Assembly (NCBI RefSeq): GCF_004010195.1
Contig: NC_057718.1
Coordinates: forward strand, 43,160,395 to 43,224,394
Source of the DNA: Chiloscyllium plagiosum
Taxonomy: Eukaryota
Direction: 5' to 3'
DNA length: 64,000 bases
This document shows, in pieces, positions 2,089 through 60,500 of the stretch. The notes below the pieces were generated by a model, which ran no database searches, was not told where the DNA came from, and worked only from the letters and a program-made list of their open reading frames with translations. Made by a program: the position numbers and the translations under genes. Each line of letters begins with the position of its first letter. Position 1 is the first letter of the stretch.

Positions 2089-2320
2089 TTCACACAGAGG
2101 GTGGTGCGTGTATGGAATGAGCTGCCAGAGGAAGTGGTTGAGGCAGGTACAATTACAACATTTAAACGGTGTCTGGATGTGTACATGAATAGGAAGGGTT
2201 TAGAGGGATATGGGCCAAATGCTAGCAATTAGGACTGGATTAATTTAGGATATCTGATCGGCATGGATGCTTTGGACCTAATGATCCTTTTCCGTGCTGG
2301 ACAGTTCTATGACTCTACGA
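2089..2320 (+). mobile_element. CR1-clade LINE 3' fragment
   Basis: [33 protein letters not shown] (CR1 ORF2 C-terminus) plus 3' UTR ending ctatgactcta. Confidence 0.9.
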
Positions 2321-3411
2321 TGTTGGGTTGCCGAGTGCTGATGCTGCATGGCCAGTTGAAAACCAAATCTATGGTACTGTTGAAAAGCAGTGATGTTTAA
2401 AGATCCAGTTAAAATGTAACAAAACTGCAGAGTACTTGTTCGTAAGTTAGTGAATGGAAATTTTCCATTGGCCAGAGAGAGCAAGATAACATTAATTCCC
2501 AGATTTTCATGTACAGAAAAAGCACCTGTTTGACACACCGAGGATAAATTGTATTTGGGTGTAAATCAGCACCTTAAGGACAAAATGAACTGAACGAGAA
2601 CAATCCCTTGTTAAAGTTGCAGTGATAAGATGAAAGTATTCACAACAATGTGTAGCCTATGTACAGCAAACATTGCTAATTTGAATGGAGTGATTAATTC
2701 AATTCTGCATCTCAAATTTTTAGAGAATAATTTGCATCTTTAACTTCATGTGAAATGATATTTCTGTTTTTGATTCAAATGCAACTTCTTTCTTTTGATC
2801 TGAACATTTAACAATACTGCATTATCTGAAGCTATAATAATTACAGAAGAAGGTTAGCGTCATAAATGAGTTTTTGTACTAATGGTAAACATCATGAAAA
2901 AGGATTAACATTGTTGGAATTTAGTCATACTTGACTATTAATTTACCAAAATACTTACAAATCTGATTATTACTTAAAAACAGTTTCATAAATTGCTTTA
3001 GGTAGCTGCAGTGTGGAATCTTATCCCTGCTTCATTGTAAGTAATCAAGCTCTGTAAGCAATCTAAAATGTACAAGCTAGAGTTTTAAAGTCGCATCAGA
3101 AACTTTAACGGTATTTTCTTGTAGAACTCTTATTCAGTGGGTAGCTGCTTGAATGCTTTGTACTGTTCACTTGCAAATGATGAATTGACAACCTTTCAAT
3201 AGGTTTAGCAGAGAATCGTAGAATGTAAGTGTTGCTTTTAATTGAGAAAGCATCACATGCAGCAATCGTTATGGTTGTGGGAAATTTAGGTTACTTTAGA
3301 TCTGCTTGATCTTTCTCCAGAATTCTCTCCTCAATACTGCCTGCAATGTTCTGCCAAACAACTTAATTTTGTGATCTTGTTGATTGGCCCTTCATTGCAT
3401 GCTGTTATCTG

Positions 3412-4506
3412 GTAGGCTTATGCGGAAAGTCAGGAGGCATGGGATAGAGGGAAATTTGGCCAATTGGATAGAAAACTGGCTAACCGGTCGAAGGCAGAGA
3501 GTGGTGGTAGATGGTAAATACTCAGCCTGGAGCCCAGTTACAAGTGGAGTTCCGCAGGGATCAGTTCTGGGTCCTCTGCTGTTTGTAATTTTTATTAATG
3601 ACTTAGATGAGGGAGTCGAAGGGTGGGTCAGTAAATTTGCAGATGATACGAAGATAGGTGGAGTTGTGGACAGTGAGGAGGGCTGTTGTCGGCTGCAGAG
3701 GGACTTAGATATGATGCAGAGCTGGGCTGAGGAGTGGCAGATAGAGTTCAACCCTGCCAAGTGTGAGGTTGTCCATTTTGGAAGAACAAATAAGAATGTG
3801 GAATACAGGGTTAATGGTAGGGTTCTTAGTAAGGTGGAGGAACAGAGGGATCTTGTGGTCTATGTTCATAGATCTTTGAAAGTTGCCGCTCAGGTGGATA
3901 GAGCTTGTAAGAAGGCCTATGGTGTATTAGCGTTCATTAGCAGAGGGATTGAGTTCAAGAGTCGTGAAGTGATGTTGCAGCTGTACAGGACTTTGTTTAG
4001 GCCACATTTGGAGTACTGTGTGCAGTTTTGGTCGCCTCACTTTAGGAAAGATGTGGAAGCTTTGGAGAGGGTGCAGAGAAGATTTACCAGGATGTTGCCT
4101 GGAATGGAGAATAGGTCGTACGAGGATAGGTTGAGAGTGCTAGACTTTTTCTCGTTGGAACGGCGAAGGATGAGGGGTGACTTGATAGGGGTTTATAAGA
4201 TGATCAGAGGAATAGATAGAGTAGACAGTCAGAAACTTTTTCCCCAGGTACAACAGAGTGTTACAAGGGGACATAAATTTAAGGTGAAGGGTGGAAGGTA
4301 TAGGGGAGATGTCAGGGGTGGGTTCTTTACCCAGAGAGTGGTGGGGGCATGGAATGCGCTGCCCGTGGGAGTGGTGGAGTCGGAATCATTGGCGACCTTT
4401 AAGCGGCATTTGGATAGGTACATGGATGGGTACTTAATCTAGGTTAGAAGTTCGGCACAACATCGTGGGCCGAAGGGCCTGTTCTGTGCTGTATTGTTCT
4501 ATGTTC
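3412..4506 (+). mobile_element. Young 5'-truncated CR1-clade LINE (RT C-terminal half, frame open to stop at 4442)
   Basis: SGVPQGSVLGPLLF, FADD catalytic motif, RPHLEYCVQFWSP, WNALP; 3' tail tgttctatgttcta; flanked by TATCTG at 3406-3411 and 4507-4512. Confidence 0.97.
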
Positions 4507-6072
4507 TATCTGATGCAACTATGCTTTATATTTTACAGATAAATGCCTATTTAAAATTGTAGTCTAAGTTGCAGAAAAAATGGACTTTTAATCAGGACGT
4601 TAGTATGACTTCTAATTTGCTGTTAAACCTGCAATGTGGTTTCACTACATTTACCTCAAATTGTGGTTCCTTAAAATTATTTGAGAATATCTATACAGTA
4701 TCTTGTCTATATTTGCAGAGTTGTCACTTACAATTGTGGTTGAATTCCCAAAAATGGTGATTTTAAGTGAAACAACTTTAAGTGAAGCATGGTTTCCCAT
4801 AGGACTCAGTGTAAAAGCCAGGGTTGGGTTCCTGTAGAAGTTTCTTGCCTAGAAAAATATCTATATCAGGCATTAGCATCACTGTGCATTTGTGGTTGAG
4901 ACAACTTGCAAAATAAATTAAGCCACTTACGATCAAATGAATGCCATCCTGATTCAAGAGAAAACACTATCATCAAATTTGGTGGGTTTTAAAATAGGCA
5001 TTTCTTGTAACCTTGTAACCTTTCTACCAATATAACATTACTGAAACACAATGTGGATGGTATTTACTTAATCACAAATTGGAAATCATAGCCCAACAAA
5101 TTCTATGATACCAACAAATTAGATTTCCGTTTCAACTGTGAAAATGAGAAGGAAGAGCTAAATGTGAAGTAAGTTGTAGTTTTTGAATGATTGGTGGCAT
5201 TTTGCCTTTTGGCTCATTCCTGAGAGTTCCCTTTTTTACTCCACTTCATGCCTGATTGTTAGGAGAAACTAAGGAGTAGGAAATGGAGGAACCTGTGGGT
5301 TTTCCCAGCAGCAGTTTTCATAGTGCCGAACCCCCAGGGTTAGGCCCTGATACGAAAGTCATGACAGCAGGGATGGGGTGGGGAAACAAGTGCCTGCACC
5401 ACCTATAGTCACCAACACTCACCCCTTGCCTCACCCACCTTCATTTCTCCTCTCTACTGGTGATTTCATAAGTTCTGTCCTTTCTTGTTCTCTGTTCCAT
5501 CATTGAGAGTGGTCAGAATTGCCTCCTCCTCTTGATTCCAATTCATACTCCTCCCAGAATCAGAGTAAATAAACTGTGCCAGGAGTGGCCTATGTACACC
5601 AGTACTTTGTCATCTGCTTGCCCACCATCAGAACAGGGATAGAGTGTATCTGTGATACGGATATTATGCTGATTTGTGATTGATAATGTGCGGAATCAAC
5701 ACACAATTCCAAAGTCAATGTATAATTTAAATGCCAAATGCATATATGAATATAATGTGTAAGATAAAATGAAAATTGCAATGAAACCATGAAAAAAGGC
5801 CTGAAAGAAATAGTCAATCTTAAAACAAAATGATGTTACACAAGGCAAATTAAATGAGGACTTACTTTACTATATTGTGCAATAAAATAACTCAGAGTAT
5901 TGCCCATAATCAGTGAAGATTCATGCTCATCTTTTTGAAGGTTGATCGATATCAATGTCTTTCGACATTAGATTGTGGATCTAGGAACTCTTGCAACTGT
6001 GACAAAATTGGTCAGCGTTTTAATCTTGGGAAAGGAAACCAGATGTTCTGTTGGCTGAAGTGATTCTCTTGA

Positions 6073-7343
6073 AGTCATACAGTCATAAAGCACAGAAACA
6101 GACCCTTCGGCCCAACTCATCCATGCTGACCAGGTTTCCTAAACTGAACTCATTTGCCTGCACTTGGCCCTCATCTCTCTAAACCTTTCTCTACCTGCAT
6201 CTTTTCAAGTGTCTTTTAAATGTTGTAATTGTACTCATCTCCAACCCTTCCTCTAGCAGCTCGTTCCATATGTGCACCATCCTCTCTGTGAAAACGTTGC
6301 CCCTAAGATCCCTTTTAAATCTTTTCCTTTTCACTTTAAATCTATGTTTTCTAGTTTTACCCTTACCTAAGCCCCTCATGATATTATAATGCTCTTTAAG
6401 GCCAACCTTCAACCTCTGACATTCTAGGGAGAAAAGTCTCAGCCTATCCAGCTTTTCCTTCTAACTAAAACCCTCCAGTCCCAGTAACATTCTTGTAAAT
6501 CTTTTTTTGCACCCTTTCCAGTTCAATAACATTCTTCCTATAGCAGGGTGATCAGAAATGTAGAACTCCAAATGTGGTGCACACAATGTATTGTACAAGT
6601 GTAATTTAATGCTCTGACTGGTCAAGGCAAGTGTGCCAAATGTCTTCTTCATCACCCTGTCTACCTACGACACAACTTTCAAGGAACTACAAACCTGCAC
6701 CCCTAGGTCTCCCTGTTCGACAACACTACCCAAGACCTTACCATTAATTGTCCCTGCCCTTGTTCATTTTATCAAAATGCAATACCTCACATTTATCCAA
6801 ATTAAACCCCAACCCATTGGACCAATTGATCAAGATCTCTTTGTAATCGTAAATAAACTTCTTCACTGTTGACTATACCACCAATTTTGGTGTTACCCGC
6901 AAATGAGCTGACCATTCCTCCCATATCCTCATCCAAATTGTTTACATCAATGATGAACGACAGTGAACCCAGCAACAATCCTACTGGCACACCGCTGATC
7001 ATAGGCTTCTAATCTGAACAACAACCGTCCACCACCTCCCTCTGTCTCCTACTGTTAAGCCAATTTTGTATCCAATTGTCAAGTTCTCCCTGGATCCCAT
7101 GTGATCTAACTTTACTAACCAGTCTACCAGGCAGGAATCTTGTCGAAGGCCTTGCTAAAGTCCGTTTAGAAAATGTCTAACGCTCTACTTTCATCTATCT
7201 TCTTGATCACCGCTTCAAAAAACCCAATCAAGTTTGTGAGACATGATTTCCCATACACAAAGCCATGCTGACTATCCCTAATCAGTCCTTGACTTTCAAA
7301 ATGCATGCAAATCATAACTCTCAGACAACTTACCCATCACTGA
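6073..7343 (-). mobile_element. Degraded CR1-clade LINE
   Basis: Minus-strand fragments SGVPVGLLLGSLSF...FAGNTKIGG, KRFTRMLLGLEG and WNELLEE, with frameshifts and deletions; 3' UTR/tail at the left end. Confidence 0.92.
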
Positions 7344-7481
7344 CTCAACTCATCTTTATCCATATTTTACACAGACTCAGATCCTTTTTTATAATTCAAG
7401 TCTCCCTCTCTGGAAGCATAATCTATTCTCTTGGAGTTCTGATCTAGAAAAGCATAGTTTGTTATGCAAATAATTTTATAA

Positions 7482-7986
7482 TGTGGAGGTGCCAGTGTTG
7501 GATTGGGATGGACAAAGTTAAAAATCACACGGCACCAGATTATAATCCAATGGGTTTATTTGGAAGTCCAAGCTTTCGGAGTGCTGCTCCTTCTTCAGGT
7601 AGCTAGTGGAGCAGGATTACAGGACACAGAATTTATAGCAAAAGATCATAGTGTCATACAACAGATGCGACACATGTGATTTACACATGAAAGAAGTGAA
7701 ATTATCATGGTATTCGAACAGATGAAAGACTCAACAGACAATCAAGGTATTTTTCAGTGTATAATTTCAGTTACATCACACTGTAAATTTTTGCTATAAA
7801 TTCTGTGCCTTAGAATTGTGTCTTCCACAACCACCTGATGAAGGAGCGGCGCTCCGAAAGCTAGTGTGCTTCCAATTAAACCTGTTGGACTATAACCTGG
7901 TGTTGTGATTTTTAACTTTGTACACCCCAGTCCAACACCAGCAACTCCCAAATCATGACTGTTGGAACATAACCTGGTGTTATGTG
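7482..7986. mobile_element. Compound Penelope-like-derived element (family A): older copy 7482-~7672 plus a less diverged opposite-orientation copy ~7673-7957 and a residual arm to ~7986
   Basis: Left arm ...acaaagttaaaaatcacac...tttggaag...agctttcggagtgctgctccttcttcagg... is the reverse complement of the right arm ...cctgatgaaggagcggcgctccgaaagct...gtgatttttaactttgt...; the same family recurs at 10721, 13636 and 57386. The Penelope assignment rests on the CTGANGA...GAAA core and inverted-arm layout. Confidence 0.75.
7832..7866 (+). ncRNA. Minimal type I hammerhead ribozyme motif
   Basis: CAC-CTGATGA-A-GGAGC-ggc-GCTCC-GAAA-GC-T-A-GTG: core CUGAUGA and GAAA, 5-bp stem II, palindromic AGCU stem III, 3-bp stem I (CAC/GTG). 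Activity untested. Confidence 0.6.
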
Positions 7987-9008
7987 AAAAATAATTTTAT
8001 GTTTAATCAAGTAGTGCCTCATTTGAGATAACTAATTGTTAAAAGTATTTATATTTTATGATACATTTTGCAGTTGCTGCATTCAATTACCAAAGTAGAG
8101 TTAAATGATAAACTAAGAAATAATGAAACATCCCATTTTAATTTAAGACAAAATTTAGGATGGCATGACATAATTTTCCTTTTGACCTGTGACCCATCCG
8201 GTTAAATATTACTGACAAGTGAAGGAATTTCTGGCTCCTGCTATACTAAAAGTGCATTGTGCACTCTTTAAATCTGTTTCACCTCTCCTTGGCCCAGCCC
8301 AGATCTCTACTGACATTGCAAATATTGGCTGCAGTTCGGGAGGCTATTGACTTTTGACCCAAAGCTTATAGGAAGTGCCAAACTAGTTATAGCATCTAGT
8401 GCCAAAGAGTGAGGGCATTACTACACACTTGAGGTCACTTCCATAAACCATGGGGAGTAATTTAGCAACTGTAGCCAAGAATTTGCAGCCAGTATAATCT
8501 TATTGTGCCCAAGAGATAAATTTATTTTCTAAATGGGAAACTTTTTTAATTGCTGTAGGCAGGCCTCAGGCACTAGTTGCAGTATCAGCAGGCAATAGTC
8601 ACTATTTTTCATGTCAAGTGGTAGATATTAGTCTGGATTATTTTGCATGTCTAGTCTTGGTGTTGTGGATCTAGTGTAAACTGAATAGAGTTCAAGGGAT
8701 GGCGGAACTTGTCCTCCATCTCTTCTATTCACTGAAAAGCAAGCTGCTGGTTGTACCACCACAGGTAACTCATTTCACTACGAGGAGCAAATGTTGGGCC
8801 ACCTGCCTGCCAGAAACAACCCTCAGGTGAATTCCTGGATGAGGTTGGAATGAGCTGTGCTGGGGGAGGCGAGACATAGAAAGATGAGAACTAAGTGTCA
8901 GGTACTTAACTTTGGCTGGTGGCCATGGGGGATGCTAAATAATCCTGGGATTCCAAGACATTGGACTCATGAGGTAACGAGTTTGTCAAAGAGCTGCCTT
9001 AATAACTA

Positions 9009-9215
9009 GGAGAAAGTGAGGACTGCAGATGCTGGAGATCAGAGTCAAAAAGTGTGGTGCTGGAAAAGCACAGCCAGTCAGGCAGCATTCTTGGTGCAGG
9101 AGAGCTGACATTTTGACCTTATTCCTGATGAAGAGCTTATGCTTGAAACATTGACTCTCCTGCTCCTCGGATGCTGCCTGACTGACTGTGCTTTCCAGCA
9201 CCACACATTTTGACT
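9009..9215. mobile_element. Penelope-like-derived inverted-repeat element (family B) with 15-bp TSD
   Basis: Arms ~9040-9104 and ~9155-9218 are reverse complements; CTGCCTTAATAACTA at 8994-9008 and 9216-9230; loop contains CTGATGA-A-GAGC-ttat-GCTT-GAAACATT. Confidence 0.8.
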
Positions 9216-10091
9216 CTGCCTTAATAACTACCACCATTAAATGAGCACCCTGAAGAGACCCAAATGCCTGAACAAGGTGGAATTAAATAAAATCAGCTTT
9301 ACCAGACTCCTGTGCCCAGATCATTGGGTTCAAGTACCATCATGGTTCAATGAAAATGGTGCTGAAATACATGACTTCCCAGAACAAATCCAGAAGGCAA
9401 AGGACATGTGGTGGATAGTGAACTCCCAAAGATCCAACAATATGCTATTATTATTGTGACATGCAAAGGTTCTTTGAAGCCACCGGGGCCATCTGTAGAT
9501 CAAAGTCAAATGGACAAATTTATCTGCTCACAGGTTGGTGTTTCTCATTTTAAAGATGAAAGTGTTATTTGTCACTGTTGGAATGTACATTTTCATCAAC
9601 TCTTGAACTGTGAATCTACAGTGTCACAGATACTCTTCTAGGCTAGCCCCTGTGGTAGAGTCCATTAATAAATCATCATTGATTGGAGAGCTGTAACATT
9701 GCCATCAAATAGATGAGAAACAGCAAAGGCTGAAAAGTAGCATAGCTGAGGTCTTCAGCTCTTTTGACTTACGTTTACATCAATGTATTCATCAATGGAT
9801 TTAGAGGAAAATGAACTTGGCTCACCTAACCCAACTTCAGGAATATGGTTATAGTGATTATCTTCACATAAGAAAATAAGTGATAACATGGAGCCTCCTG
9901 AGGTAGCCTTCCTGCTTGACCATTGCAAGTAAAATCCTGACACACATTCTCCTGAATCAACTAACTGCTGTGGCTGAACAAATCCTCCCAGTAATCAGTG
10001 GTGCTTTATCTAAAGAATCTTTAGGCATAGATACATCTAGCAATAAAGACCCAAGAGAAATATCTGGAACAGCACCAAGAACTGTTTAATA

Positions 10092-10320: not shown

Positions 10321-10720
10321 TGACTAAGAACTCTTAATGGCATTCATCGGCCTGAGCGAAGCATTTGAACCACTAAATTGTGAGTCTTTGTGAGTGGTGT
10401 TCCAAAGATTTATATGTCCAAAAACATCACAAACCTACAATTATTTCATGATAATATATAGGATATTGGAAACAAATATCTTCAAATCTGACTGCGACCA
10501 ATGGCCATGCAATTGCCCTCATAATATTAACAATCTGCTTGAAAGTGACTATTCACTTCATCAAAGATCAACTACCCTCTGCTATCAGTGTTAAATACCC
10601 ACTTAGAGTGAAAACTCTTTAATCACAGTTATTTCTGTGCCAAACCTAAACTGACCATTATAGACATACAGATCTACAGTGTGGTATGGCTGTAATGTCC
10701 ACAAGAATGTTCCCAAGAAT

Positions 10721-10873
10721 GATTTGGAGGTGCCGGTGTTGAACTGGAGTGTACAAAGTTAAAAATCACACAACACCAGGTTATAGTCCAGCAGGTTTAT
10801 TAACCCTATCGCAAGTGCTTCCAGTTAAACCTGTTGGACTATAACCTGATGTTGTGTGATTTTTAACTTTGTA
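10721..10873. mobile_element. Family A hairpin element inserted into a CR1 fragment
   Basis: ~48-bp inverted arms at 10752-10799 and 10826-10873 with 2 mismatches; flanked by gttcccaagaat (10709-10720) and gatcccaggaat (10874-10885). Confidence 0.8.
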
Positions 10874-11345
10874 GATCCCAGGAATGAAAATATTAACATA
10901 TGAGGAACGTTTGAGGACTCTGGGACTATACCCAATGGAAGTTAGAAGGATGAGGGAAGCTCTGATTGAAACTTACAGAATACTGAATGGCCTGGACAGG
11001 GTGGCATTGGAAACATGTTTCCATTGGCAGGAGAGATGAGGAACTGAGGGCACAGCCATAGAGTAAAGGGAAAATGGAGAATCTCCCTTTAGAATGAAAA
11101 TAATGATAAATGGCTGAAGCCAGAGAGTGGTGAATCTGTGGAATTCATTGCCACAGAAGACTGTGGAGGCCAGGTCAATGAGTATGTTTAAAACAGAGAT
11201 AAGTAAGTTCTGATTGCCCAGGGGATCAAAAGTTACGGGGAGATAGCGGGAAAATGGGGTTGAGAAACCTATCAGCCATGATTGGCGGAGCAGATTCGAT
11301 GGGCAGAATGGCCTAATTTCTGCTCCTCTGTCTTATGGTCTTATG
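10874..11345 (+). mobile_element. CR1-clade LINE 3' fragment (second subfamily)
   Basis: ccaggaatgaaa...tatgaggaacgtttgagg...gagagtggtgaatctgtggaattcattgccacag (WNSLPQ) and tail ctgctcctctgtcttatggtcttatg. Confidence 0.85.
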
Positions 11346-11519: not shown

Positions 11520-12778
11520 CATAGAGTCGTAGAGTTATACAGCATGGAAACAGACCCTTTGGTCCAACTCATCCATGCTGATCGAATGCCCAAAAACTAT
11601 CTAATCCTATTTGCCAGCATTTGGCCGATATCCCTCTAAACCCTCTAAATCATGTCCCCATCCAGATGCCTTTTAAATGTTGTAATGGTACCTGCCTGTA
11701 CCACTTCCTCTGGCAGCTTATTCTATACATGTACCACCCTCTGCATGAAAATGTTGCCCCTCAAATCGCTTTTAAATCTTTCCCCTCTCACTTTAACCCT
11801 ATGCCGTCTAGTTTGGGAAAAAAACCTTGTCTATTTACCCTATCCATGTTCCTCATGGTATTATAAACCTCTATAAGGTTACCCCTCAGCCTCCGATGCT
11901 CCAGGGAAAACAGCTTCAGCCTATTCAGCCTCTCACTGTCGCTCAAACCTTCCAATCCCAGCAGCATTCTTATAAGTCTTTTCTGAACCCTTTCAAGTTT
12001 AACAATATCTTTCCTAAAGGAGAGAGACCAGAATTGAATACAGTATTCCAGAAGTGGCCTAACCAATATCCTGTACAACCACAACATGACATTCCAACTC
12101 CTATACTCAATGCACTGACCAATGAAGGCAAGAATGCCAAACACCTTCTTCACCGCCCCACTTTCAGGAACTGTGCATCTGCACCCCTTGGTCTCTTTGT
12201 TTGGCAATACTCTCCAGGGCCCGACATTGACTTCCTAAGTCCTGCCCTGATTTGTCTTACAAAAATGCAGCACTTCACATTTATCTAAATTAAACTCCAT
12301 CTACCACTCCTCCGTCCATCACCCATCTGATCAGAGTACAAGGTCCCGTTGTACTCTGAGATAATCTTCTTCAATCTCCATTGTACTACCAATTTTGGTA
12401 TCATCTGCATGTTTACTAGCCAGGCCTCCTATATTCACATCCAAATCATTTATATAAATGACAAGAAGCAGTGGACCCAGCAATGATCCTTGCAACACAC
12501 CACTGGTCATAGACCTCCAGTCTAAAAGAAACCTTACAACACTATCGTCTGTCTCTTACCTTCAAGTCAATTTTGTATTCAATTGGCTAGCTCCCCCTGG
12601 ATTCTATTTGATCAAATCTTATGGAACCTTGTTGAATGCCTTGCTGAAGTCCACTTAGATAACATCTACCATTCTGCCCTAATCAACCCTCTTCAAAAAA
12701 CTCTATCTAGTTAATGAGACATGACTTGCCATGCACAAAGCCACATTGACGGTCCCAAATCAGTCCTTATCTTTCCAA
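11520..12778 (-). mobile_element. Degraded CR1-clade LINE
   Basis: Minus ORF 11788-12207 (LVRPLLEYCIQFWS...LERVQKRLIRML); 3' tail catagagtcgtagag at the left end. Confidence 0.93.
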
Positions 12779-13635: not shown

Positions 13636-13747
13636 ATGCTGCTGCTCCGAAAGATAGTGCTTCCAAATAAACCTGTTGGACTATAACCTGGTGTCGTGTG
13701 ATATTTAACTTTGTACACCCCAGTCCAACACTGGCATCTCCAAATCT
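13636..13747 (+). mobile_element. Truncated family A element with 9-bp TSD
   Basis: gctccgaaagatagtgcttccaaataaacctgttggactataacctggtg...ctccaaatc; TAATAAGTG at 13627-13635 and 13748-13756. Confidence 0.8.
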
Positions 13748-14009: not shown

Positions 14010-14600
14010 ACTGAGAATAGGAGTTGGGAGGTCATGTTGCAGCTGTACAGACATTGGTTAGGCCACTTTTGGAACATTGTGTGCAATTCTGGTCTCCCTA
14101 CTATAGGAAGGATGTTGTGAAACTTGAAAGATTTCAGAAAAGATTTACAAGGCTGTTGCAAGGGTTGGAGGGTTTGAACTCCAGGGAGATGCTGATTAGG
14201 CTGGGGCTGTTTTCCCGGGAGTGTGGAGACTGAGTGGTGACCTCACAGATCATTATAAAATCATGAGGGCCATGGATAGGATAAATAGACAAGGTCTTCT
14301 CCATGGGGTGGGGAGTCCAGAACTAGAGGGCACAGTTTAGGGTGAGAGGGGAAAGATTTAAAAAGGGTCACAAAGGGTGGTACATGTATAGAATGAGCTG
14401 CCAGAGGAAGTGGTGGAAGCAGGTACAATTACAACATTTAAAAGACATCTGGATGGCTATTTGAATAAGAAGGGTTTAGAGGGATATAGGCCAAGTGCTG
14501 GCAAATGGGACTAGATTAGGTTGGAATATCTGGTTAGCATGGACAGCTTGGACTGATTGGTCTGTTTTCGTACTGTACATCTTTATGACTGTATGATTGT
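14010..14600 (+). mobile_element. CR1-clade LINE 3' fragment
   Basis: LVRPLLEHCVQFWSPYYRKDVVKLERFQKRFTRLL followed by the family 3' UTR and tail. Confidence 0.93.
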
Positions 14601-18883: not shown

Positions 18884-19397
18884 TACTGTATGTGGTCCCT
18901 TGTGTAGCTGCTTTCAGATAATAGGGGTTAAACAAGCCCTCTCGCCAGCACCACTCCAGTTAAGATATTGGGCAGTGGCACTGCAGGCTCTGTGCAAATT
19001 CTTAAATACACAGATTGTTCCAGTCTGCTGATAACTCTTAAGATTGCTGAACTGGTCCGATTTAGAGAAATGTCTCCTTGCATGTCCCTCACCCAACCTC
19101 CTCCCAGTCTGCAGATTAAATCAGTTGAATGGTGGTGTTGCATTCTCTTAAATTCAGCCAGATTCATATTGAATTTCCAACTGTTTAAATGAGTCTACAA
19201 TATTTGCTGGCTTAGAGGTACAATTTAGTTTTTATTATGATCACAGAAGAATTTGTTGTGAGGATGTTGCTCTGAGGCCTCTACATGAGGGTTGGTCTAG
19301 AAATGCAATTTGCTATCATATAGAATATAATGGTTGGGTTGGTAGCCACTTCCTATTGACTGCCTGGCTGTTGTTTCTCCAGACTTATACACTTACT

Positions 19398-20163
19398 AGG
19401 AAGGTCCTGAGGATTGGTGCTGAACATAGAGACCTTGGAATGCAGGTTCATTGTTCCTTGAAAGTGGAATCCCAGGTAGACAAGATAGTGAAGAAGTCAT
19501 TTGGCATGCTTGCCTTCACTGGCCACTGATGGGGGTGTGGTTAGTGAGAGGGGGAGGGCACCTTGGGAGGGGGGGGGGGGCTGGANNNNNNNNNNNNNNN
19601 NNNNNNNNTGGGGATGCTGCAGCTGTACAGACATTGGTTAGGCCATTATTGGAATACAGTGTGCAATTCTGGTCTCCTTGCTAAGGGAAGGACGTTATAA
19701 AACTTGAAAGGGTTCAGAAAAGATTTACAAGGATGTTGCCAGGGTTGGGAGAGTTTGAGCTATAGGGAGAGGTTGAATAGGCTGGGGCTATTTTCCCTGG
19801 AGCATTGGAGGCTGAGGGGTGACCTTGTAGAGGTTTGTCATAAGGAATATTGATAAGGTAAATAGACAAGGTCTTTCATAGGGATGGGGGAGTTCAAAGT
19901 ATAGGGCACAGGTTTAAGGTGAGAGGAAAAGATTTAAAACAAACCTAAGGGGCAACTTTTTCATGCATAGGGTGGTGTATGGAATCAGTTGCCAGAGGAA
20001 GTGGTGGAGGCTGGTATAATTACAACATTTAAAAGGGATCTGGATGGATCTATGAATAGGAGGATCAGAGGGAAATGGGCCAAGTACTGCCAAATGGGAC
20101 TTGATTAATTTGTGTTATCTGGTCAGCATGGACAGGTTGGACAGATGGGTCTGTTTCCATGCC
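19398..20163 (+). mobile_element. CR1-clade LINE fragment spanning an assembly gap
   Basis: LVRPLLEYSVQFWSPC, ggaatcagttgccagaggaagtggtggagg and the family 3' UTR. Confidence 0.9.
19586..19608. other. Assembly gap (23 N)
   Basis: Run of N shortly after a poly-G tract. Confidence 0.99.
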
Positions 20164-30290: not shown

Positions 30291-30421
30291 TAGAGTCATA
30301 GTCACAGAGATGTACAGCATGGAAACAGATCCTTTGGTCCAACTCGTTCATGCCAACCAGATATTCTAAATTAATCTAGTCCCATTTGCCAGCACTTGGC
30401 CCATATCCCCACAAACCCTTC
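30291..30421 (-). mobile_element. Short CR1 3'-end fragment in ESRRG intron 1
   Basis: tagagtcatagtcacagagatgtacagcatggaaacagatcctttggtccaactcg...ggcccatatccc is the reverse complement of the 3' UTR seen at 2200-2320 and 14480-14600. Confidence 0.88.
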
Positions 30422-33400
30422 TTTGATAAAAGAAAATGAATAATTGCAATATATAGGTGATTTATATCTTGACAGGTTAAAAATTTTAAGGACATATAAT
30501 GGACAAATAGTCTTTGTCATTTTGGGCATAAAAAAGATAACCTAAAATTCATGAAAGACATGTATTGATAGGTGCCCAATCGACTGCCTCATGCATGTTC
30601 TCCAGTTTTTCTGATACATATCTTAAATAATTTCACTGGATTGTTTATACTTAGAACATATATATTAAGGTTAGCTGTTACTTCATTTCCAAAGAAAGTA
30701 GAATTATTAATCTTGCAGCAATTTTTAAGCCGTGCTGAACCAAACAGGACAGTGACAGAGATCTTTGGTCAATGCACAGTCTCCAACATGAAATAGCAGT
30801 GTCCAAAAAAAGCAGCATAATTCTGACAGTGCTGGATTGACGCTAATATACCTGGAAGGAAGCTAGTTCGCGCTGAAGCGACCAGCGTCAGACAGGGCTA
30901 TGTGCCATCTGTCCCACCTGCTGCATAGTTAGTCCATCTGGTTATTCAGAGTGTGCTTTGTGGGTTTTACCGGAGCAACTTCAGTGCCAGTAGGCAAGCA
31001 AGCAGAGTAAATTATTTAAGCAGCCAATGTAAACTGAAAGCTCTCACCCTAGATGCTGGGGATTGCGTTAAATGCTTGAAAGCTTCTATTTGCATATAGA
31101 TTTAGATACAGTATATAGATCACTGAGGAGATTACAACCAAATTATCTTCACCTGGATCCTTACAGGGCATCTTTTTGCCTGTATTGAGTCACAGTTCTG
31201 GATGGTATTTTGTTTTTGTTTTGTAGGGAAGAGGAAATTAAAAGGATGTGATTTATTTCCAGCACAGCAGCCTGTTAAAGGAACACTAATTGTTAGCAAA
31301 TTTGTTCAAAACTCTTCAGAGTGTCAGGTCTGCACATTTTATTGTTCCCTGTCACCAATTTACTTACTGAGCACTCTTTGCAAATCTGATAGGGGATTTG
31401 TAATGGAAATGAAACAAGTAGAAAATACTGCACCAAAAAGGTGAAATGAATCAAACAAGGAGTTTAAAGACAACAACATCTGTCCATAAGTTTATGTTGC
31501 ACATTGGTAGGTGTTTGCAACACTTGAACTTTTGTTAGTGCTGCAAAGGTTCATTTTAAATGTCAGGAATCAATTGTATTCCTTCTGATTAGAATGACTC
31601 TATATGTTTAACAGTTCATTGAATTAAGTACAATAAATTCCTCAATTCACCAGTTAGGACATGAGCTACTGCCTGACAGCAAAATGTGCATTGGTTGAAC
31701 ATTATAACAAGAAAAACTTTTCAATACATTTTTTATTTTGTAGAGACAGAGTAAAGTTAAAATTACTTTTCTTGATTTAACTTTGGTTTTGAATCATGAC
31801 AAGAGAGTTTTTATTCTCAGAACAGCAATATCATGTAAAATCACTTTTTTCAGGAAATTTAACTTTGGTCAAGCAGATATGGATTTTAATATATGATGAA
31901 TTCACAGTAATATTAACTGCAATACTTCCAAATCCACAAATTCTAACTCATTGAGATCTGAAACTTGCCTCTATTGGATCTAGAATCTACTGAGAGTATG
32001 ACCAAGCAAATTGACTTGCACCAAATACATGCACAGAGTTTAGGCTTCTCCTGGATAATCAAAAGTAGAGAGTAAAACTTGCTTGGCAGCTTCCAACGTC
32101 CATACTTTAATTCTGAATGTAGGATTCCAATTTGCATATTTGAGAAACCTATGGCTTCTTTCAAGCAGCTGCATCGGAAGATGTAAAATGATTCAATTAG
32201 TTTGCACATAACCAATTTTAATATGAAGTTTGACACTCTAACAATGTTTTTCTAAATCAGTTTTTTGGGGGGAGGGGGGGGCACGGTGGTGGGTGGGGGC
32301 TAATGAGTGTATAATTTCTGGGTGATGGACCAAATGGAAATATATTTGTGCTGCAGTGCTAATATTGTTTAGCCACTAGAGGCTGCTAGATCATTTTTAT
32401 GCTATTGTGACTTAAGTGGTATTACCCCCAGCTTGTTGATAAAAATTTGAATGATACCCAAGTTGAAACTGGGTTGGACTCTGGGTGGGGGCCTGAGGCT
32501 GTTCCATGGATGCACCTCTGGTAAGTTTCTGTGTCTCCTGCTGGTTTGTGCAGTGTCTTATTCTTTCATTATTTCCCACTTGTTTCCCTCCCCCTCGCTG
32601 CAGGACAGATATTTTGTTGGCTATACTTCCATGGGAGCAATGAATCTTCAGAACCTTGTTCAAATGGTTGTTTTTCAAGTGTGACCCTTGGACAGTGAGT
32701 GCTGGAGTGTTATTCTACTGCATAAGACATTATAATGAAACCAAATCTAACCCATATATATGTTTATGGAATGAGTAACTGAATTGCATGCAGAATTGTG
32801 TCCTCTCATTGACAAGTGTTAGCATTTACCTATTTAGCCGTGGGATCCTGCAACCAATTGTACGGTCACAGCTGCTGCTCTGGCAGAGGGCAGAACCTTG
32901 CTAACCTTTCAGACAACTGGAGCAGGTAGCTTCAGAAATAATCAAAGGGTTAGTTGAAAATTGGATGTGCTGCATAATGATGTATGCAGATTACCTAACC
33001 AGAAATCACTAAACTTCTGAACAAGTTTTGAATATTCATGTTTGGGTTTGGAATGTGGAGTATTGCTTGTTAAGCAGTTCTGTGTGTGAGCTGATCAAAT
33101 TAAAAACAATGGTTCATGTTAATGATTGGTTCAAGCGTCACTCGAGAGCAATTTGCAGTATAGCTGTCTTAATCTATTGCCGCTGCACAATGTGTCTTAG
33201 GAGTGCAGTATATATTTTAGCCAGTGGACAGATATTGAAAATGCTTGAACTACATAGTAGGGCATCAGTACCTGAAGGAGAAAACATAGATCCACATTTC
33301 TGCAAAGAAGTTATCTCATCTTTGTCAGTATTGGCAATACTGTGTCAATCTGCAGCATATTCCATTTTTATTTTGTACAGCCATCATTTCTGATTTTACT

Positions 33401-40944: not shown

Positions 40945-41601
40945 GAAGGTAGTTAGAAGGCGATTAGCACGCTTGCCTTCATTGCTCAAACCTTTGAGTA
41001 TAGGAGTTGGGATGTCATGTTAATATTATTATACAGGTCATTGGTGAGGCCTCTTCTGAAATACTGTATGCAGTTCTGGTCACCCTGCTATCGGAAGGCT
41101 ATTTTTAAATTGGGGAGGCTTCAGAAAATATTTACCAGGATGTTGCTCGGAATGGAAGGTTTGAGTTATAAAGATAGGCTGGGTAGGCTAGGCCTCTTTC
41201 CACAGGAGCGTGAGAAGTTGAGGGGTGACCTTATAAAGGTTTATAAAATTATAAGGACATAGATAAGGTGAATAGCAAGGGTCTTTTTCCCTAGGGTGGG
41301 GGAGTTCAAAACAAGGGGGTGTACTTTTAACATGAGAGGAGAAAGGTTTAAAAAGGACATGAGGGGCACCGTTTTTACACAGACAGTGTTTAGTGTGTGG
41401 AATGAACTGCCAGAGGAAGTGGTGGATGGAGATACAGTCACAACATTTAAAAGATATTTGGATAAGCACATGAATAAGAAAAGTTTGGAGGGATATGGGC
41501 CAAACGCAGGCAGGTGGGACTACTTTGGTTTGGGAATACAGTCGACATGGACTAGTTGGACCGAAAGGTCTGTTTCCATGCTGCCTGATTCTGTGACTCT
41601 A
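40945..41601 (+). mobile_element. CR1-clade LINE 3' fragment in ESRRG intron 1
   Basis: [43 protein letters not shown]; tail ctgtgactcta. Confidence 0.93.
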
Positions 41602-57385: not shown

Positions 57386-57540
57386 CCATGATTTGGAGAT
57401 GCCGGTGTGGACTGGGGTGTACAAAGTTAAAAATCACACAACACCATGTTATAGACAACCACCTGATGAAAGAGCAGCGCTCCGAAAGATAGTGCTTCCA
57501 AGTAAACCTGTTGGACTATAACCTGGTGTTGCGTGATTTT
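57386..57540. mobile_element. Family A inverted-repeat element with 13-bp TSD in ESRRG intron 3
   Basis: AAACATAGTAACC at 57373-57385 and 57541-57553; arms aaaatcacacaacaccatgttatag / ctataacctggtgttgcgtgatttt; contains CTGATGA (57463-57469)...GAAA (57484-57487). Confidence 0.85.
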
Positions 57541-60500
57541 AAACATAGTAACCTCAGAAATCAGAAGTCAGTATCAGTGCTGGTTTTCTAGTCACAGGTT
57601 GTTTTGGTTTAAAGTAATTGAAATCATTTGTTATAGGTGAAGGCTGAATGGAACTATCACAGACAAGAGAGAATGACTATGTATGACAGTTATCATAGTT
57701 TTAACTGAACTTTGCAATTGCCATAGCCATCATGCATGCACCTGATTATAAAACATATATGAGATTCTGAATGCATCTTAGTGAAAGATGAACAAAATAT
57801 TCTTCAATTCACCCTGTTTACTTACATTTATATAGATTGTTGCTTCTGATTCATGAATCCATGACAAACATGGCAAAATAGCATTGTAAATAAAGCAATA
57901 TTTACAATTATTCTCTGTTAATCTTAAGAGACTTTCCTGCTATAAATATTTTCATTTATTTTAAGACTGGTGGCATTGATATTGGTTAAAAGATGTAGAA
58001 TTTATTTCTGCATAATATATTGTGGTTTTTCATTGATAATTTCCAAAGTGAAAGAACTTTTATTTTCAGAGGAAGGTTAGCCAATAACAGTCTAAAACAT
58101 TTTAAATGATATTTTCTGATTATCCTTGGACAAGCAAAGTGAGGAATTGGATTGGATGTTTTTATCAACATATTTCAAGTTTGTGCATATGATTTTGGAT
58201 ATCCAAATGGTAATTGCTGATAGATTTTTCCTTCAGCATTTTTACCATTTTAACAAACCAAGCACTTTAACAATGATTAATTTGCCATGCAAAAATAAAT
58301 TCAAGTGAAGCATCGGAGGGAATTCTCAAGTAGTTTTAATATTCCAAATTTACATCTTTAAACCGATTTTGTGCTTCACTTCCCAATAATTCTATTTTTT
58401 TAGCAAATTCAGTTAAACTGTAAATGTTGGAATTAATGAATGAATTTGATTTTCAATGATGTAGACACTTCTTTCCTGAAATGATCAAATCTAGACATAA
58501 GGCTCAGGCAGTTATCATTTGTCTATTTTATATGAATTAATACTAACCACAACAAATACGGTAATTATACAAATGTCTTTCCTTGAAACCCATTATATGA
58601 GCTTGGAAATGTTCTGATTTATGAATACTATCCTAGAATTATATTATCTGTAACAAAAGTGTAAGCCAGAATAAATTTAATATGTTCACAATCGGGTGTT
58701 AATTTAAATATTTTGTATTTGTACTCTTTAAACACATAAGCACACTAGAGACACACACATTTTGAATACTGAAGCCACTCAGAAAGTGTTAGTGTAAGAG
58801 AAGCAATCATATCACTGCCTAAAATATTCACCTAAGCCCCACTAGCTGTTTAAATGTCTAATTTGGGCTATATTTGGGAGTTGCTAAAGTGTGGAGATAA
58901 GATTAATCATACACAAGCAAATAAAGCTATGGTTAAGACCTCTCATTCTACATTCCGAGTGTCAAAATGTTGTCACAAGACACAAATGGAATGTGGTGAT
59001 CTCTGAATGGTAATCTTAACATTGGCTCTGGTTAAACACACTGTATGATAGTTTGATGTCAATATTCGTATTACTTCTGAAAAGAATGTTCTTTAAAAAG
59101 GGATAAACTGTTTTGGCTCGTATTGCACTAAAACCGGCCATCAATCTAGACATAATTTTCTTCCAAAGTAGCGCAATGTCCATGCATTTGTACACATTCA
59201 ATTTTGTTTTATAACTGCAAATGCAAAGAAAGTGTTCTTTTACATTTTTCTTAGAATTGAATAGAGACTAGCGGCTCCTTCCATTATTTGTTAGTACACA
59301 ACAGTTTTGCACAGTTTCAACTGTAACATGCCACGCATAGTTTCTCAGTAACCTTTTAAGAAGCTAGGATTAGTAAGTGTAACACTGAGAAATCTGAAGA
59401 GCAGACAAGTGGGTCATGAGTTAATATGATTTTGATGGCTGCAGGAAAATGCAATACTTTATTGCTTCATACAATAGCTTGTTAGCACAACATAGTCTTC
59501 CTTTCCTCTTAAAGCATTAACAACTGCAAATGCCTGCAATGCACTCTTGACATCAGCCTGGCCGTAAGTCTCACCAGGGATGAATAGTAGTTGTTGGCAT
59601 AGCAAACTGTGTTTGTGACCTCTTTGCACTCTAGACAGCTGTTAAGACCCTGCCTTTAATAGGCAAGGTTAGCAGAGTGTAGGCTTCTTCTCAATGTACT
59701 GACCAGATCCCCTATTGCATAAAGAAGAGAACAAAAGACTGATGACAGCTCCTGATGTCTGAGCATTTCAAAAGCTGGCTCAAAAGTTCATCATGATAGA
59801 CTGGATTAGTGCACATTACAGCATCATTTGCCAAATATGGATGTAGTATCCTACAAGCCTTTCTATGCACGTCAGGTTATCCATCATACAAACTATGCTA
59901 GCTGCACCTGGAAAGATGTTTCTTCTTGTACAGTTATTTTAGATGCCGTGATAAATTCAGTTTTTAGAATTTGAAGCCACCCTCTTTTGCATCCGCATTC
60001 TACTAGTACTGCTGGTAATATCATCAAGATTACTCAAATCAAAATCCAAGTTAATAAAAGAGGGGAAATAATTTAAGAAAAGGAAAATGTTTTTCACACA
60101 TTTAAGGAACATAAAATCTATTTCAAATATGGCATGATGACAGCTGTTAATGGAAATTAGGGGCCCTCCCACAAGAATTACTGGTGATTAGAAAATTCAA
60201 AAAACGGAGTAGTACAACAAACACAATAATTTATAAATGCCGATTTATTGAACCTGGTTAGACTGTTAATATCCTCAAACAGGAATTTAAAGTTGGCATT
60301 TTGCATTAGCTTATTACATTGCATTCTGATCACACTGTGTATTGGGGAATTCTGCAACTGTGCCCATATTCAAACTAAGAAGAAAAAAGATGTCACAGAG
60401 GGTCACAAATTATGTTCAGGTTTGACAGATTGTAGCCTTGCTTTACAAGAGCAGTAACATCTCATTTGTCACAGTTTGATCAGTAAGTGCGTGAATGCAA

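What the first reader, a model, noticed from the sequence alone, without database searches (positions are those of the whole stretch)
7832..7866. Intact minimal hammerhead ribozyme core in a short dispersed shark repeat
Seen: CAC/CUGAUGA/A/GGAGC-GGC-GCUCC/GAAA-GC-U-A/GUG, i.e. the conserved hammerhead core, a perfect 5-bp stem II, a palindromic AGCU in place of stem III and a 3-bp stem I. Known: Penelope-like elements carry minimal type I hammerheads with palindromic stem III in their pseudo-LTRs, proposed to cleave as dimers. Inference: this non-coding family (5 pieces in 64 kb) is a Penelope pLTR derivative that spreads ribozyme motifs. Predicted cleavage is after A7863. Caveats: stem I is very short and there is an extra A after CUGAUGA.
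Basis: partly seen in the sequence, partly recalled or inferred. Interest (0 to 1): 0.75.

Follow-up and report, generated by a model that had tools for sequence, protein, structure and literature searches.

The report
Penelope retrotransposon's minimal hammerhead ribozyme
This is a real but already described kind of tiny predicted self-cutting RNA motif, carried at the end of a very abundant Penelope-type jumping gene, and most of the element's RNA likely stays uncut when it is copied, so it is mostly ordinary apart from a clue to how these elements likely rebuild their end repeats.

Summary
The motif is there exactly as written (7832-7866; predicted cut after A7863). It matches the published minimal hammerhead of Penelope-like elements (PLEs). 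The 'extra A' and the 3-bp stem I are hallmarks of that class, not defects. The repeat is not a separate non-coding family: it is the 5'-truncated 3' end (pseudo-LTR) of a ~3.47-kb Neptune-type PLE with RT and GIY-YIG endonuclease. Near-full copies carry the motif at both ends, and 12,186 exact motif copies exist genome-wide. No footprint of cleavage was found: 0 of 95 copies start at the cut site, and RNA reads run through it. Instead, 52 of 95 copies start at the motif's first letters, 30 nt after a TATA box, often with a non-element G (2,744 copies), which suggests run-off from a capped, uncut RNA. RNA reads are polyadenylated 30 nt after the cut site, upstream of where genomic copies end. 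That gives an LTR-like U3-R-U5 layout. The scan has noted this family and the start-site pile-up before, in this and other genomes; the poly(A) site is added here. New member of a known kind; cleavage untested.

The parts
7832..7866 (+). Minimal type I hammerhead motif (stem I 7832-34/7864-66; core 7835-41; extra A 7842; stem II 7843-55; GAAA 7856-59; palindrome 7859-62; predicted cut after A7863)
   Evidence: matches the consensus in PMC4209133 Fig. S3; 12,186 exact copies with free loop in G000, control 0
7675..7960 (+). Younger, 5'-truncated copy of the 3' end of a Neptune-type PLE (3' UTR, pseudo-LTR, tail, first two codons of the ORF)
   Evidence: up to 94% identical to other copies over 7675-7957; same sequence flanks RT-EN ORFs and precedes the ORF start in partial tandems
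7797..7803 (+). TATA-like box, 30 nt before the inferred start
   Evidence: sequence; conserved in copies; promoter function inferred
7827..7827 (+). Inferred transcription start, 8 nt before core C3
   Evidence: mode of 5' ends, 10 of 95 copies; preceded by G in 2,744 copies vs A or T in 1,227 and the element's own C in 18,404; 30 of 30 G-copies examined begin there
7875..7880 (+). Poly(A) signal (ATTAAA; AATAAA in some copies)
   Evidence: sequence; variant seen in reads
7892..7895 (+). Poly(A) addition site of family transcripts, followed by a GU-rich tract (7898-7913)
   Evidence: 403 + 488 reads of run X21 end in poly(A) here, of 3,096 laid; 320 + 358 of 2,879 on a second copy
7917..7954 (+). 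Optional ~38-nt PLE 'tail'; copies end either before or after it (45 short, 52 long of 97)
   Evidence: equals the sequence just before the ORF's ATG in partial tandems
7955..7957 (+). ATG that opens the ORF in full-length copies
   Evidence: oriented copies L082, L091, L093, L096
7478..7670 (-). Older, opposite-strand copy of the same end, with a damaged motif at 7567-7601 (stem I broken)
   Evidence: 81.5% identical to the + arm, 79-86% to its best-scoring other copies; descriptor hit only without stem I
7959..7987 (+). Short extra fragment of the pseudo-LTR
57387..57557 (.). Fold-back stub of the same family; + arm starts at the inferred start site; motif damaged (G10.1 and palindrome changed)
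10719..10881 (.). Fold-back stub of the same family lacking most of the motif
13644..13746 (+). Stub of the same family starting inside stem II

Best explanation
The motif is the minimal hammerhead in the pseudo-LTR of a highly abundant Neptune-type Penelope-like retrotransposon; it likely sits at the very start of the element's RNA, is predicted to cut only weakly and only as a dimer or with the element's protein, and most RNA that gets copied is likely uncut. Shown: the window copy is a 5'-truncated 3' end of an RT + GIY-YIG element; full units have the motif at both ends about 3.47 kb apart; family transcripts are polyadenylated 30 nt after the cut site and read through it. Inferred: the TATA box starts a capped RNA 8 nt before the core; the RT starts at one of two sites 90-130 nt into this RNA (as shown for the anole PLE), and often runs off the cap, which gives the many stubs that begin at -8 with an extra G. 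Two motifs (the 5' and 3' copies of one RNA, or two RNAs) could pair through their AGCU palindromes to form an active double hammerhead that occasionally cuts after A7863. This particular copy is a dead passenger that inserted next to an older copy in the opposite orientation.
For: Link to ORF: 25 of 29 endonuclease-chosen loci; one frame runs from RT (GTAMG, YIDD) through a CX4CX2C linker to the GIY-YIG with two Cys between its halves; RVT_1 E 6e-6 and 1e-5 in 2 of 8 frames; Atlas neighbours 0.95-0.97 with RVT_1/GIY-YIG. Motif ~90 nt before the ATG in partial tandems and at both ends in 6 of 10 long loci. Match to the published consensus including extra nucleotide, G10.1-C11.1 and palindrome. 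Other PLE-end families in this genome keep the core but change stem I, stem II and the palindrome in pairs (read by eye). 52 of 95 copies start at -15..+3, 0 of 95 at the cut site. G excess at -9. Reads cross the cut site without a drop (depth 1350 to 1291) and show no pile of ends there. The active double-hammerhead fold is far from the dimer's best fold (-18 vs -45 kcal/mol). Published min-HHRs cut poorly in vitro; the anole PLE motif cuts only with protein and is not needed for insertion in vitro.
Against: No cleavage assay. Pfam hits for RT and GIY-YIG are below the curated cut-offs; no PDB match; no RT tree was built, so the clade rests on motifs. Within the family the core is no more conserved than the downstream flank (3.2% vs 2.4%). 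A few copies do start at the cut site (36 pattern matches vs 15 at a control position; 19 of 30 examined are apparent starts), so rare cutting is not excluded. The poly(A) library would lose a 30-nt cut fragment, so the uncut share cannot be measured. The RNA run may be of a related species and most poly(A) reads may come from host read-through. The start site is inferred from DNA ends only; the extra G could be templated by the opposite arm in 6-8 of 30 copies.
Confidence: 0.78

Rival explanations
1. Circle model (Cervera and De la Pena 2014): the 5' and 3' motifs cut as a dimer, the ~3.47-kb monomer is ligated into a circle, and RT runs round it to give more-than-unit copies; the stubs are a side product of uncut RNA.
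For: Motifs at both ends with unit spacing 3,460 and 3,474 nt. 5' pseudo-LTRs reach 150-340 nt upstream of the inferred start, which a simple linear RNA cannot template. The core is kept across families. A circle would leave no 5' ends at the cut site, so their absence does not count against it.
Against: No circle junction can be told from the genomic sequence. The dominant 5' ends point to linear capped RNA. Published activity of such dimers is low.
Confidence: 0.25
2. The motif does not cut at all in this family; it is kept as a 5' RNA structure or protein-binding site, or as a relic.
For: No cleavage footprint; weak stem I (0.27); CUA triplet; core mutants of the anole PLE still insert in vitro.
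Against: All core nucleotides are kept across diverged families while the helices change, which is best explained by selection on catalysis; the anole motif does cut when protein is present.
Confidence: 0.15
3. The short pieces are an independent non-autonomous element (a retrozyme or SINE) that copies itself as a short ribozyme RNA.
For: Stubs of 90-130 nt with a fixed start are the commonest form. Animal retrozymes derive from PLE pseudo-LTRs.
Against: No tandem array of the unit in the window. Stubs carry the same subfamily variants as ORF-linked copies. Lengths grade up to the full element.
Confidence: 0.05

Closest known systems
Minimal hammerheads (min-HHR) in pseudo-LTRs of metazoan PLEs (Cervera and De la Pena 2014, PMC4209133; main text parts 1-2 of 4 and supplement file 2 parts 1-2 of 3 read)
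   Same: Type I core, one extra nucleotide between 9 and 10.1, G10.1-C11.1, no helix III with palindromic 15.2/16.2, 3-bp helix I as in several listed species, location at both ends of RT-EN elements, mostly solo and inverted copies.
   Different: No cartilaginous fish among the rows of Fig. S3 or Table S1 that I read (name search of file 2 gave 0, file 1 unreadable). Exact-copy number (12,186) is above the 4,000-9,000 they report for coelacanth and Xenopus. Helix II is 5 bp.
Neptune-clade EN+ Penelope-like elements (Craig et al. 2021, PMC8557442; passages read)
   Same: C-terminal GIY-YIG with CCHH, CX2-5CxxC linker, DKG motif, 5' truncation, partial tandems, inverted 5' copies, optional 30-40-bp tail.
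   Different: Clade not confirmed by a tree; Nematis also has a (reduced) linker. No intact ORF was seen among the copies examined.
Poseidon element of Anolis carolinensis, PAc (Frangieh et al. 2024, PMC11167929; parts 1-2 of 4 read)
   Same: Two 3' ends that bracket a tail, matching two internal RT start sites; hammerhead near the ORF start; no RNA-seq ends at the cut site.
   Different: In PAc the ORF starts inside the hammerhead and the RT starts 111-118 nt into the ORF; here the ATG lies ~90 nt after the motif and the tail ends at the ATG. PAc was assayed; this one was not.
Animal non-LTR retrozymes (bioRxiv 10.64898/2026.07.22.740005; passages and section 14 read)
   Same: Type I hammerheads derived from PLE pseudo-LTRs; reported, with PLEs, in one chondrichthyan genome.
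   Different: Retrozymes are tandem arrays with a hammerhead per unit; these copies are dispersed truncated ends.

Membership tests
PLE minimal hammerhead (min-HHR) | Core CUGANGA ... GAAA ... UH | tested here: met
PLE minimal hammerhead (min-HHR) | One nucleotide between 9 and 10.1; G10.1-C11.1 closing pair | tested here: met
   A7842; G7843-C7855 against the consensus
PLE minimal hammerhead (min-HHR) | No helix III; palindromic 15.2/16.2 | tested here: met
   AGCU 7859-7862; kept in 43-44 of 44 copies at 7860-7861
PLE minimal hammerhead (min-HHR) | Located in both pseudo-LTRs of an RT-EN element | tested here: met
PLE minimal hammerhead (min-HHR) | Compensatory change in helices | tested here: inconclusive
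   None within the family; seen by eye between families; the formal alignment was out of register and not counted
PLE minimal hammerhead (min-HHR) | Self-cleavage as dimer or with protein | not testable with these tools
   Indirect footprints negative or faint
Rfam hammerhead families | Score against the covariance models | tested here: not met
   no hammerhead match at E<=5; the models expect a helix III (recalled)
EN+ Penelope-like element | Single ORF with RT and C-terminal GIY-YIG | tested here: met
   one frame holds RT core to EN end; N-terminus; Pfam scores below cut-off; Atlas
EN+ Penelope-like element | Partial tandems, inverted 5' copies, optional 30-40-bp tail | tested here: met
Neptune clade | CX2-5CxxC linker plus CCHH in the endonuclease | tested here: met
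Neptune clade | Placement in the RT phylogeny | not tested
   no reference PLE sequences on hand
Non-LTR retrozyme | Head-to-tail array with one hammerhead per unit | tested here: not met
   no such array in the window or among the 97 sampled copies; arrays elsewhere in the genome were not searched

The most novel reading that the evidence does not exclude
This PLE rebuilds its pseudo-LTR the way LTR elements do. The pseudo-LTR is laid out as U3 (TATA) - R (start at 7827 to poly(A) at about 7893, holding the hammerhead) - U5 (tail up to the ATG). RT starts in the 5' copy's tail, runs to the cap to make a 90-130-nt strong-stop-like cDNA, and either inserts there (the thousands of G-capped stubs and fold-backs) or jumps to the 3' R and goes on. 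This explains why genomic 3' ends lie 20-60 nt downstream of the poly(A) site, and a second jump would give the partial tandem, without any need for hammerhead cleavage.
Probability: 0.3. Interest if true: 0.65.

Novelty: new member of a known kind. Interest (0 to 1): 0.27.

Why it matters
The motif itself is expected: PLE hammerheads have been in print since 2014. Its value is as a large natural data set. More than 12,000 exact motifs and more than 30,000 end fragments record where the element's RNA starts, ends and is copied. How PLEs regenerate their pseudo-LTRs is an open question (PMC2377424 states that there is no obvious mechanism other than tandem formation), as is whether their hammerheads cut in vivo. 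A mapped start, poly(A) site and two RT start points make the jump model and the circle model directly testable. The family may also donate thousands of poly(A) sites to host transcripts.

Tried and rejected
Rfam scan: no hammerhead hit. Folding z-score of the region: uninformative. Long open frames of 685-1,542 aa reported were microsatellite tracts or assembly gaps, not intact ORFs. The upstream motif in L063 was an unrelated solo insertion. PDB sequence search: no match. Within-family conservation test: no excess of core over downstream flank. Cross-family alignment by MAFFT was one base out of register, so no pair count was run. 5' versus own 3' pseudo-LTR identity (91.5-98.2%) was not clearly above cross-locus values except in L135 and L136, so it does not tell the models apart. 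The reading of 7478-7956 as a single fold-back insertion was rejected because the arms are only 81.5% alike. Cut-site footprint: 0 of 95; 36 vs 15 genome-wide, of which 11 of 30 examined were merely mutated full motifs. No RNA holder on record was listed for the stretch; run X22 laid 0 reads and is no test. The rise in read depth at 7825 was not used as start-site evidence because read length can produce it. Four reads joining the early ORF back to stem I do not join at the cut site and were not taken as a circle. Literature searches with no relevant hit: hammerhead ribozyme + Penelope + shark, hammerhead ribozyme + cartilaginous fish, Penelope + pLTR + transcription start + polyadenylation + tail, Penelope-like + strong-stop; the library lacks most subscription journals, and Repbase/Dfam were not available.

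Full report
Observation. The sequence at 7832-7866 is as described: 3-bp stem I, CUGAUGA, an extra A, a 5-bp stem II closed by G-C with a 3-nt loop, GAAA, a palindromic AGCU and A17 at 7863. A descriptor for this shape, written after seeing it, finds only this site in the window and nothing in 300 shuffles. The bare core pattern is not significant on its own (6 matches; 4 of 100 shuffles reach 6). Rfam finds no hammerhead. Stem II is predicted stable (0.96-0.97) and stem I weak (0.27). The family has 8 pieces at 4 places in the window; only this one is intact.

What it belongs to. Thirty best genomic relatives share a fixed 3' end about 90 nt after the motif and have variable 5' ends, often with an inverted second copy. 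Two extend more than 1.3 kb upstream into an endonuclease frame. That protein has 54,900 first-look candidates in the genome. Of 29 loci chosen by the endonuclease, 25 have the motif downstream on the same strand; the 4 others have 1.1-1.7 kb of N. One frame runs from the RT core (GTAMG, YIDD) through a CX4CX2C linker to a GIY-YIG domain with two cysteines between its halves, the Neptune/Nematis layout described in PMC8557442 (passages). Pfam RVT_1 hits 2 of 8 frames at E 6e-6 and 1e-5 and GIY-YIG 1 of 3 at E 0.012, all below the curated cut-offs. The Atlas gives neighbours at 0.95-0.97 with RVT_1 and GIY-YIG on part of their members; the PDB gives nothing. Copies chosen by the ORF's N-terminus show the same motif and tail directly before the ATG. 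In 6 of 10 long loci the motif stands at both ends; spacing is 3,460 and 3,474 nt in the two cleanest, and 2,517-5,208 in those with deletions, insertions or gaps. Every copy examined has stops, frameshifts or truncation. The motif with a free 3-nt loop occurs 12,186 times exactly (control 0), and a 31-mer after it 31,931 times.

This copy. The + arm (7675-7960) is up to 94% identical to other copies; the - arm (7478-7670) is 79-86% like its best-scoring relatives and 81.5% like the + arm. I read this as two insertions of different age side by side, not one fold-back (inference).

Is the motif selected? Within the family, no: among 44 copies from 41 of 58 loci chosen by protein sequence, non-CpG mismatch is 3.2% in the core, 1.6% in stems, 2.4% downstream, 8.0% upstream and 26% in loop II with its CpG sites. 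Between families, yes by inspection: other repeats in the fetched loci, one also present in the window at 9125, keep the core and the extra A but have different stem I and II pairs and ACGU instead of AGCU. That second family also lies downstream of its own GIY-YIG frame, about 30% identical (3 of 29 loci). No formal covariation count was possible.

Does it cut? I fetched the first 97 of the 100 listed matches (of 31,931) to a 31-mer downstream of the cut site; 95 were usable (2 touched N). 24 extend more than 40 nt upstream of the core, 2 start at -27, 52 start at -15..+3 with a mode at -8 (10 copies), 12 at +4..+24, 4 at +25..+33 (none at the cut, +29), 1 at +34. Genome-wide, the base before -8 is the element's C in 18,404 copies, G in 2,744 and A or T together in 1,227. 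All 30 G-copies examined begin there; the opposite arm could supply the G in 6-8 of them. Position -8 lies 30 nt after a TATA box. I infer a capped RNA starting there and copied uncut; the idea came from earlier scan notes and was retested here. A two-base test at the cut site gave 36 matches against 15 at a control position; of 30 examined, 11 were mutated full motifs and 19 apparent starts; the control was not examined. So cut-site starts are rare, and a small excess is not excluded. In raw poly(A) RNA reads of run X21 (about 2% of the run; species match not established; most reads 90-99% alike, so family-level), 3,096 reads were laid; depth crosses the cut site without a drop, no pile of ends appears, and 403 + 488 reads end in poly(A) at 7892 and 7895, after an ATTAAA/AATAAA signal and before a GU-rich tract (repeated on a second copy, where depth falls to about 5 inside the ORF). 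Such a library would lose a 30-nt cut fragment, so it shows uncut RNA but not its share. The active double-hammerhead fold of two RNAs is computed at -18 kcal/mol against -45 for the best dimer fold.

Mechanism. Most likely the motif is a weak, conditional ribozyme at the head of the element's RNA. Published min-HHRs do not cut as monomers and cut poorly as dimers (PMC4209133); the anole PLE motif cuts only with its protein and is dispensable for insertion in vitro, and RT starts at two internal sites that define the tail (PMC11167929). Here copies also end at two points (45 short, 52 long of 97). Both points lie downstream of the poly(A) site, so the template for a copy's 3' end is likely the 5' copy of the repeat, a read-through RNA or a circle. 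The simplest new reading is an LTR-like run-off and jump; the published rival is the circle. My data do not separate them.

Novelty. The motif class, its place and its likely weak activity are in print. No cartilaginous fish appears in the rows of the 2014 supplement that I read, a 2026 preprint reports PLEs and retrozymes in one chondrichthyan genome (its supplements are closed and may list this family), and five searches found no paper on shark PLE hammerheads or on a strong-stop step in PLEs. PMC2377424 (passages) maps a TATA-less promoter in the Drosophila pseudo-LTR and argues that pseudo-LTRs are not made by reverse transcription; PMC3846280 (passages) notes a TATA box and Inr in a rotifer pseudo-LTR and explains inverted junctions by self-priming. 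PMC6155905 was read as passages only. The scan holds 529 notes with these words in at least 33 genomes. Verdict: real, new member of a known kind, interest 0.27.

Noticed in passing
window 9040-9230: Fold-back stub of a second PLE-end family with its own minimal hammerhead at 9125 (4-bp stem II, ACGU palindrome in intact copies), here decayed at CpG sites; linked to a different GIY-YIG frame in 3 of 29 loci.
   Followed up: partly
L132:1371 and L021:737: A third motif variant with a 3-nt loop II and a 4-bp stem I after a pyrimidine-rich stretch; parent element not looked for.
   Followed up: no
window 7875-7913: The pseudo-LTR holds a working poly(A) site; with over 30,000 copies the family may end many host transcripts.
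   Followed up: partly
window 10815: The + arm of this fold-back starts at or within one base of the predicted cut site, one of the few such cases.
   Followed up: partly
L139:985 to 773: Four RNA reads join the early ORF back to the first base of stem I; probably one rearranged genomic copy, not a circle.
   Followed up: no
L266, L271, L273, L279, L290: Five loci on different contigs share the same motif-bearing stub with identical upstream flank, so the stub was carried inside another repeat or duplication.
   Followed up: no
L063, L064, L065 (3' UTR region): The element's 3' UTR holds a CA-rich microsatellite that has expanded to 2-3 kb in some copies and fakes long open frames.
   Followed up: partly
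window 2089-2321, 3909-4427, 6073-7300, 11520-12778, 14012-14597, 19389-20162, 30300-30423, 40955-41601: Another dispersed repeat family, 66-82% alike between copies; looks like LINE 3' ends from recall, not tested.
   Followed up: no
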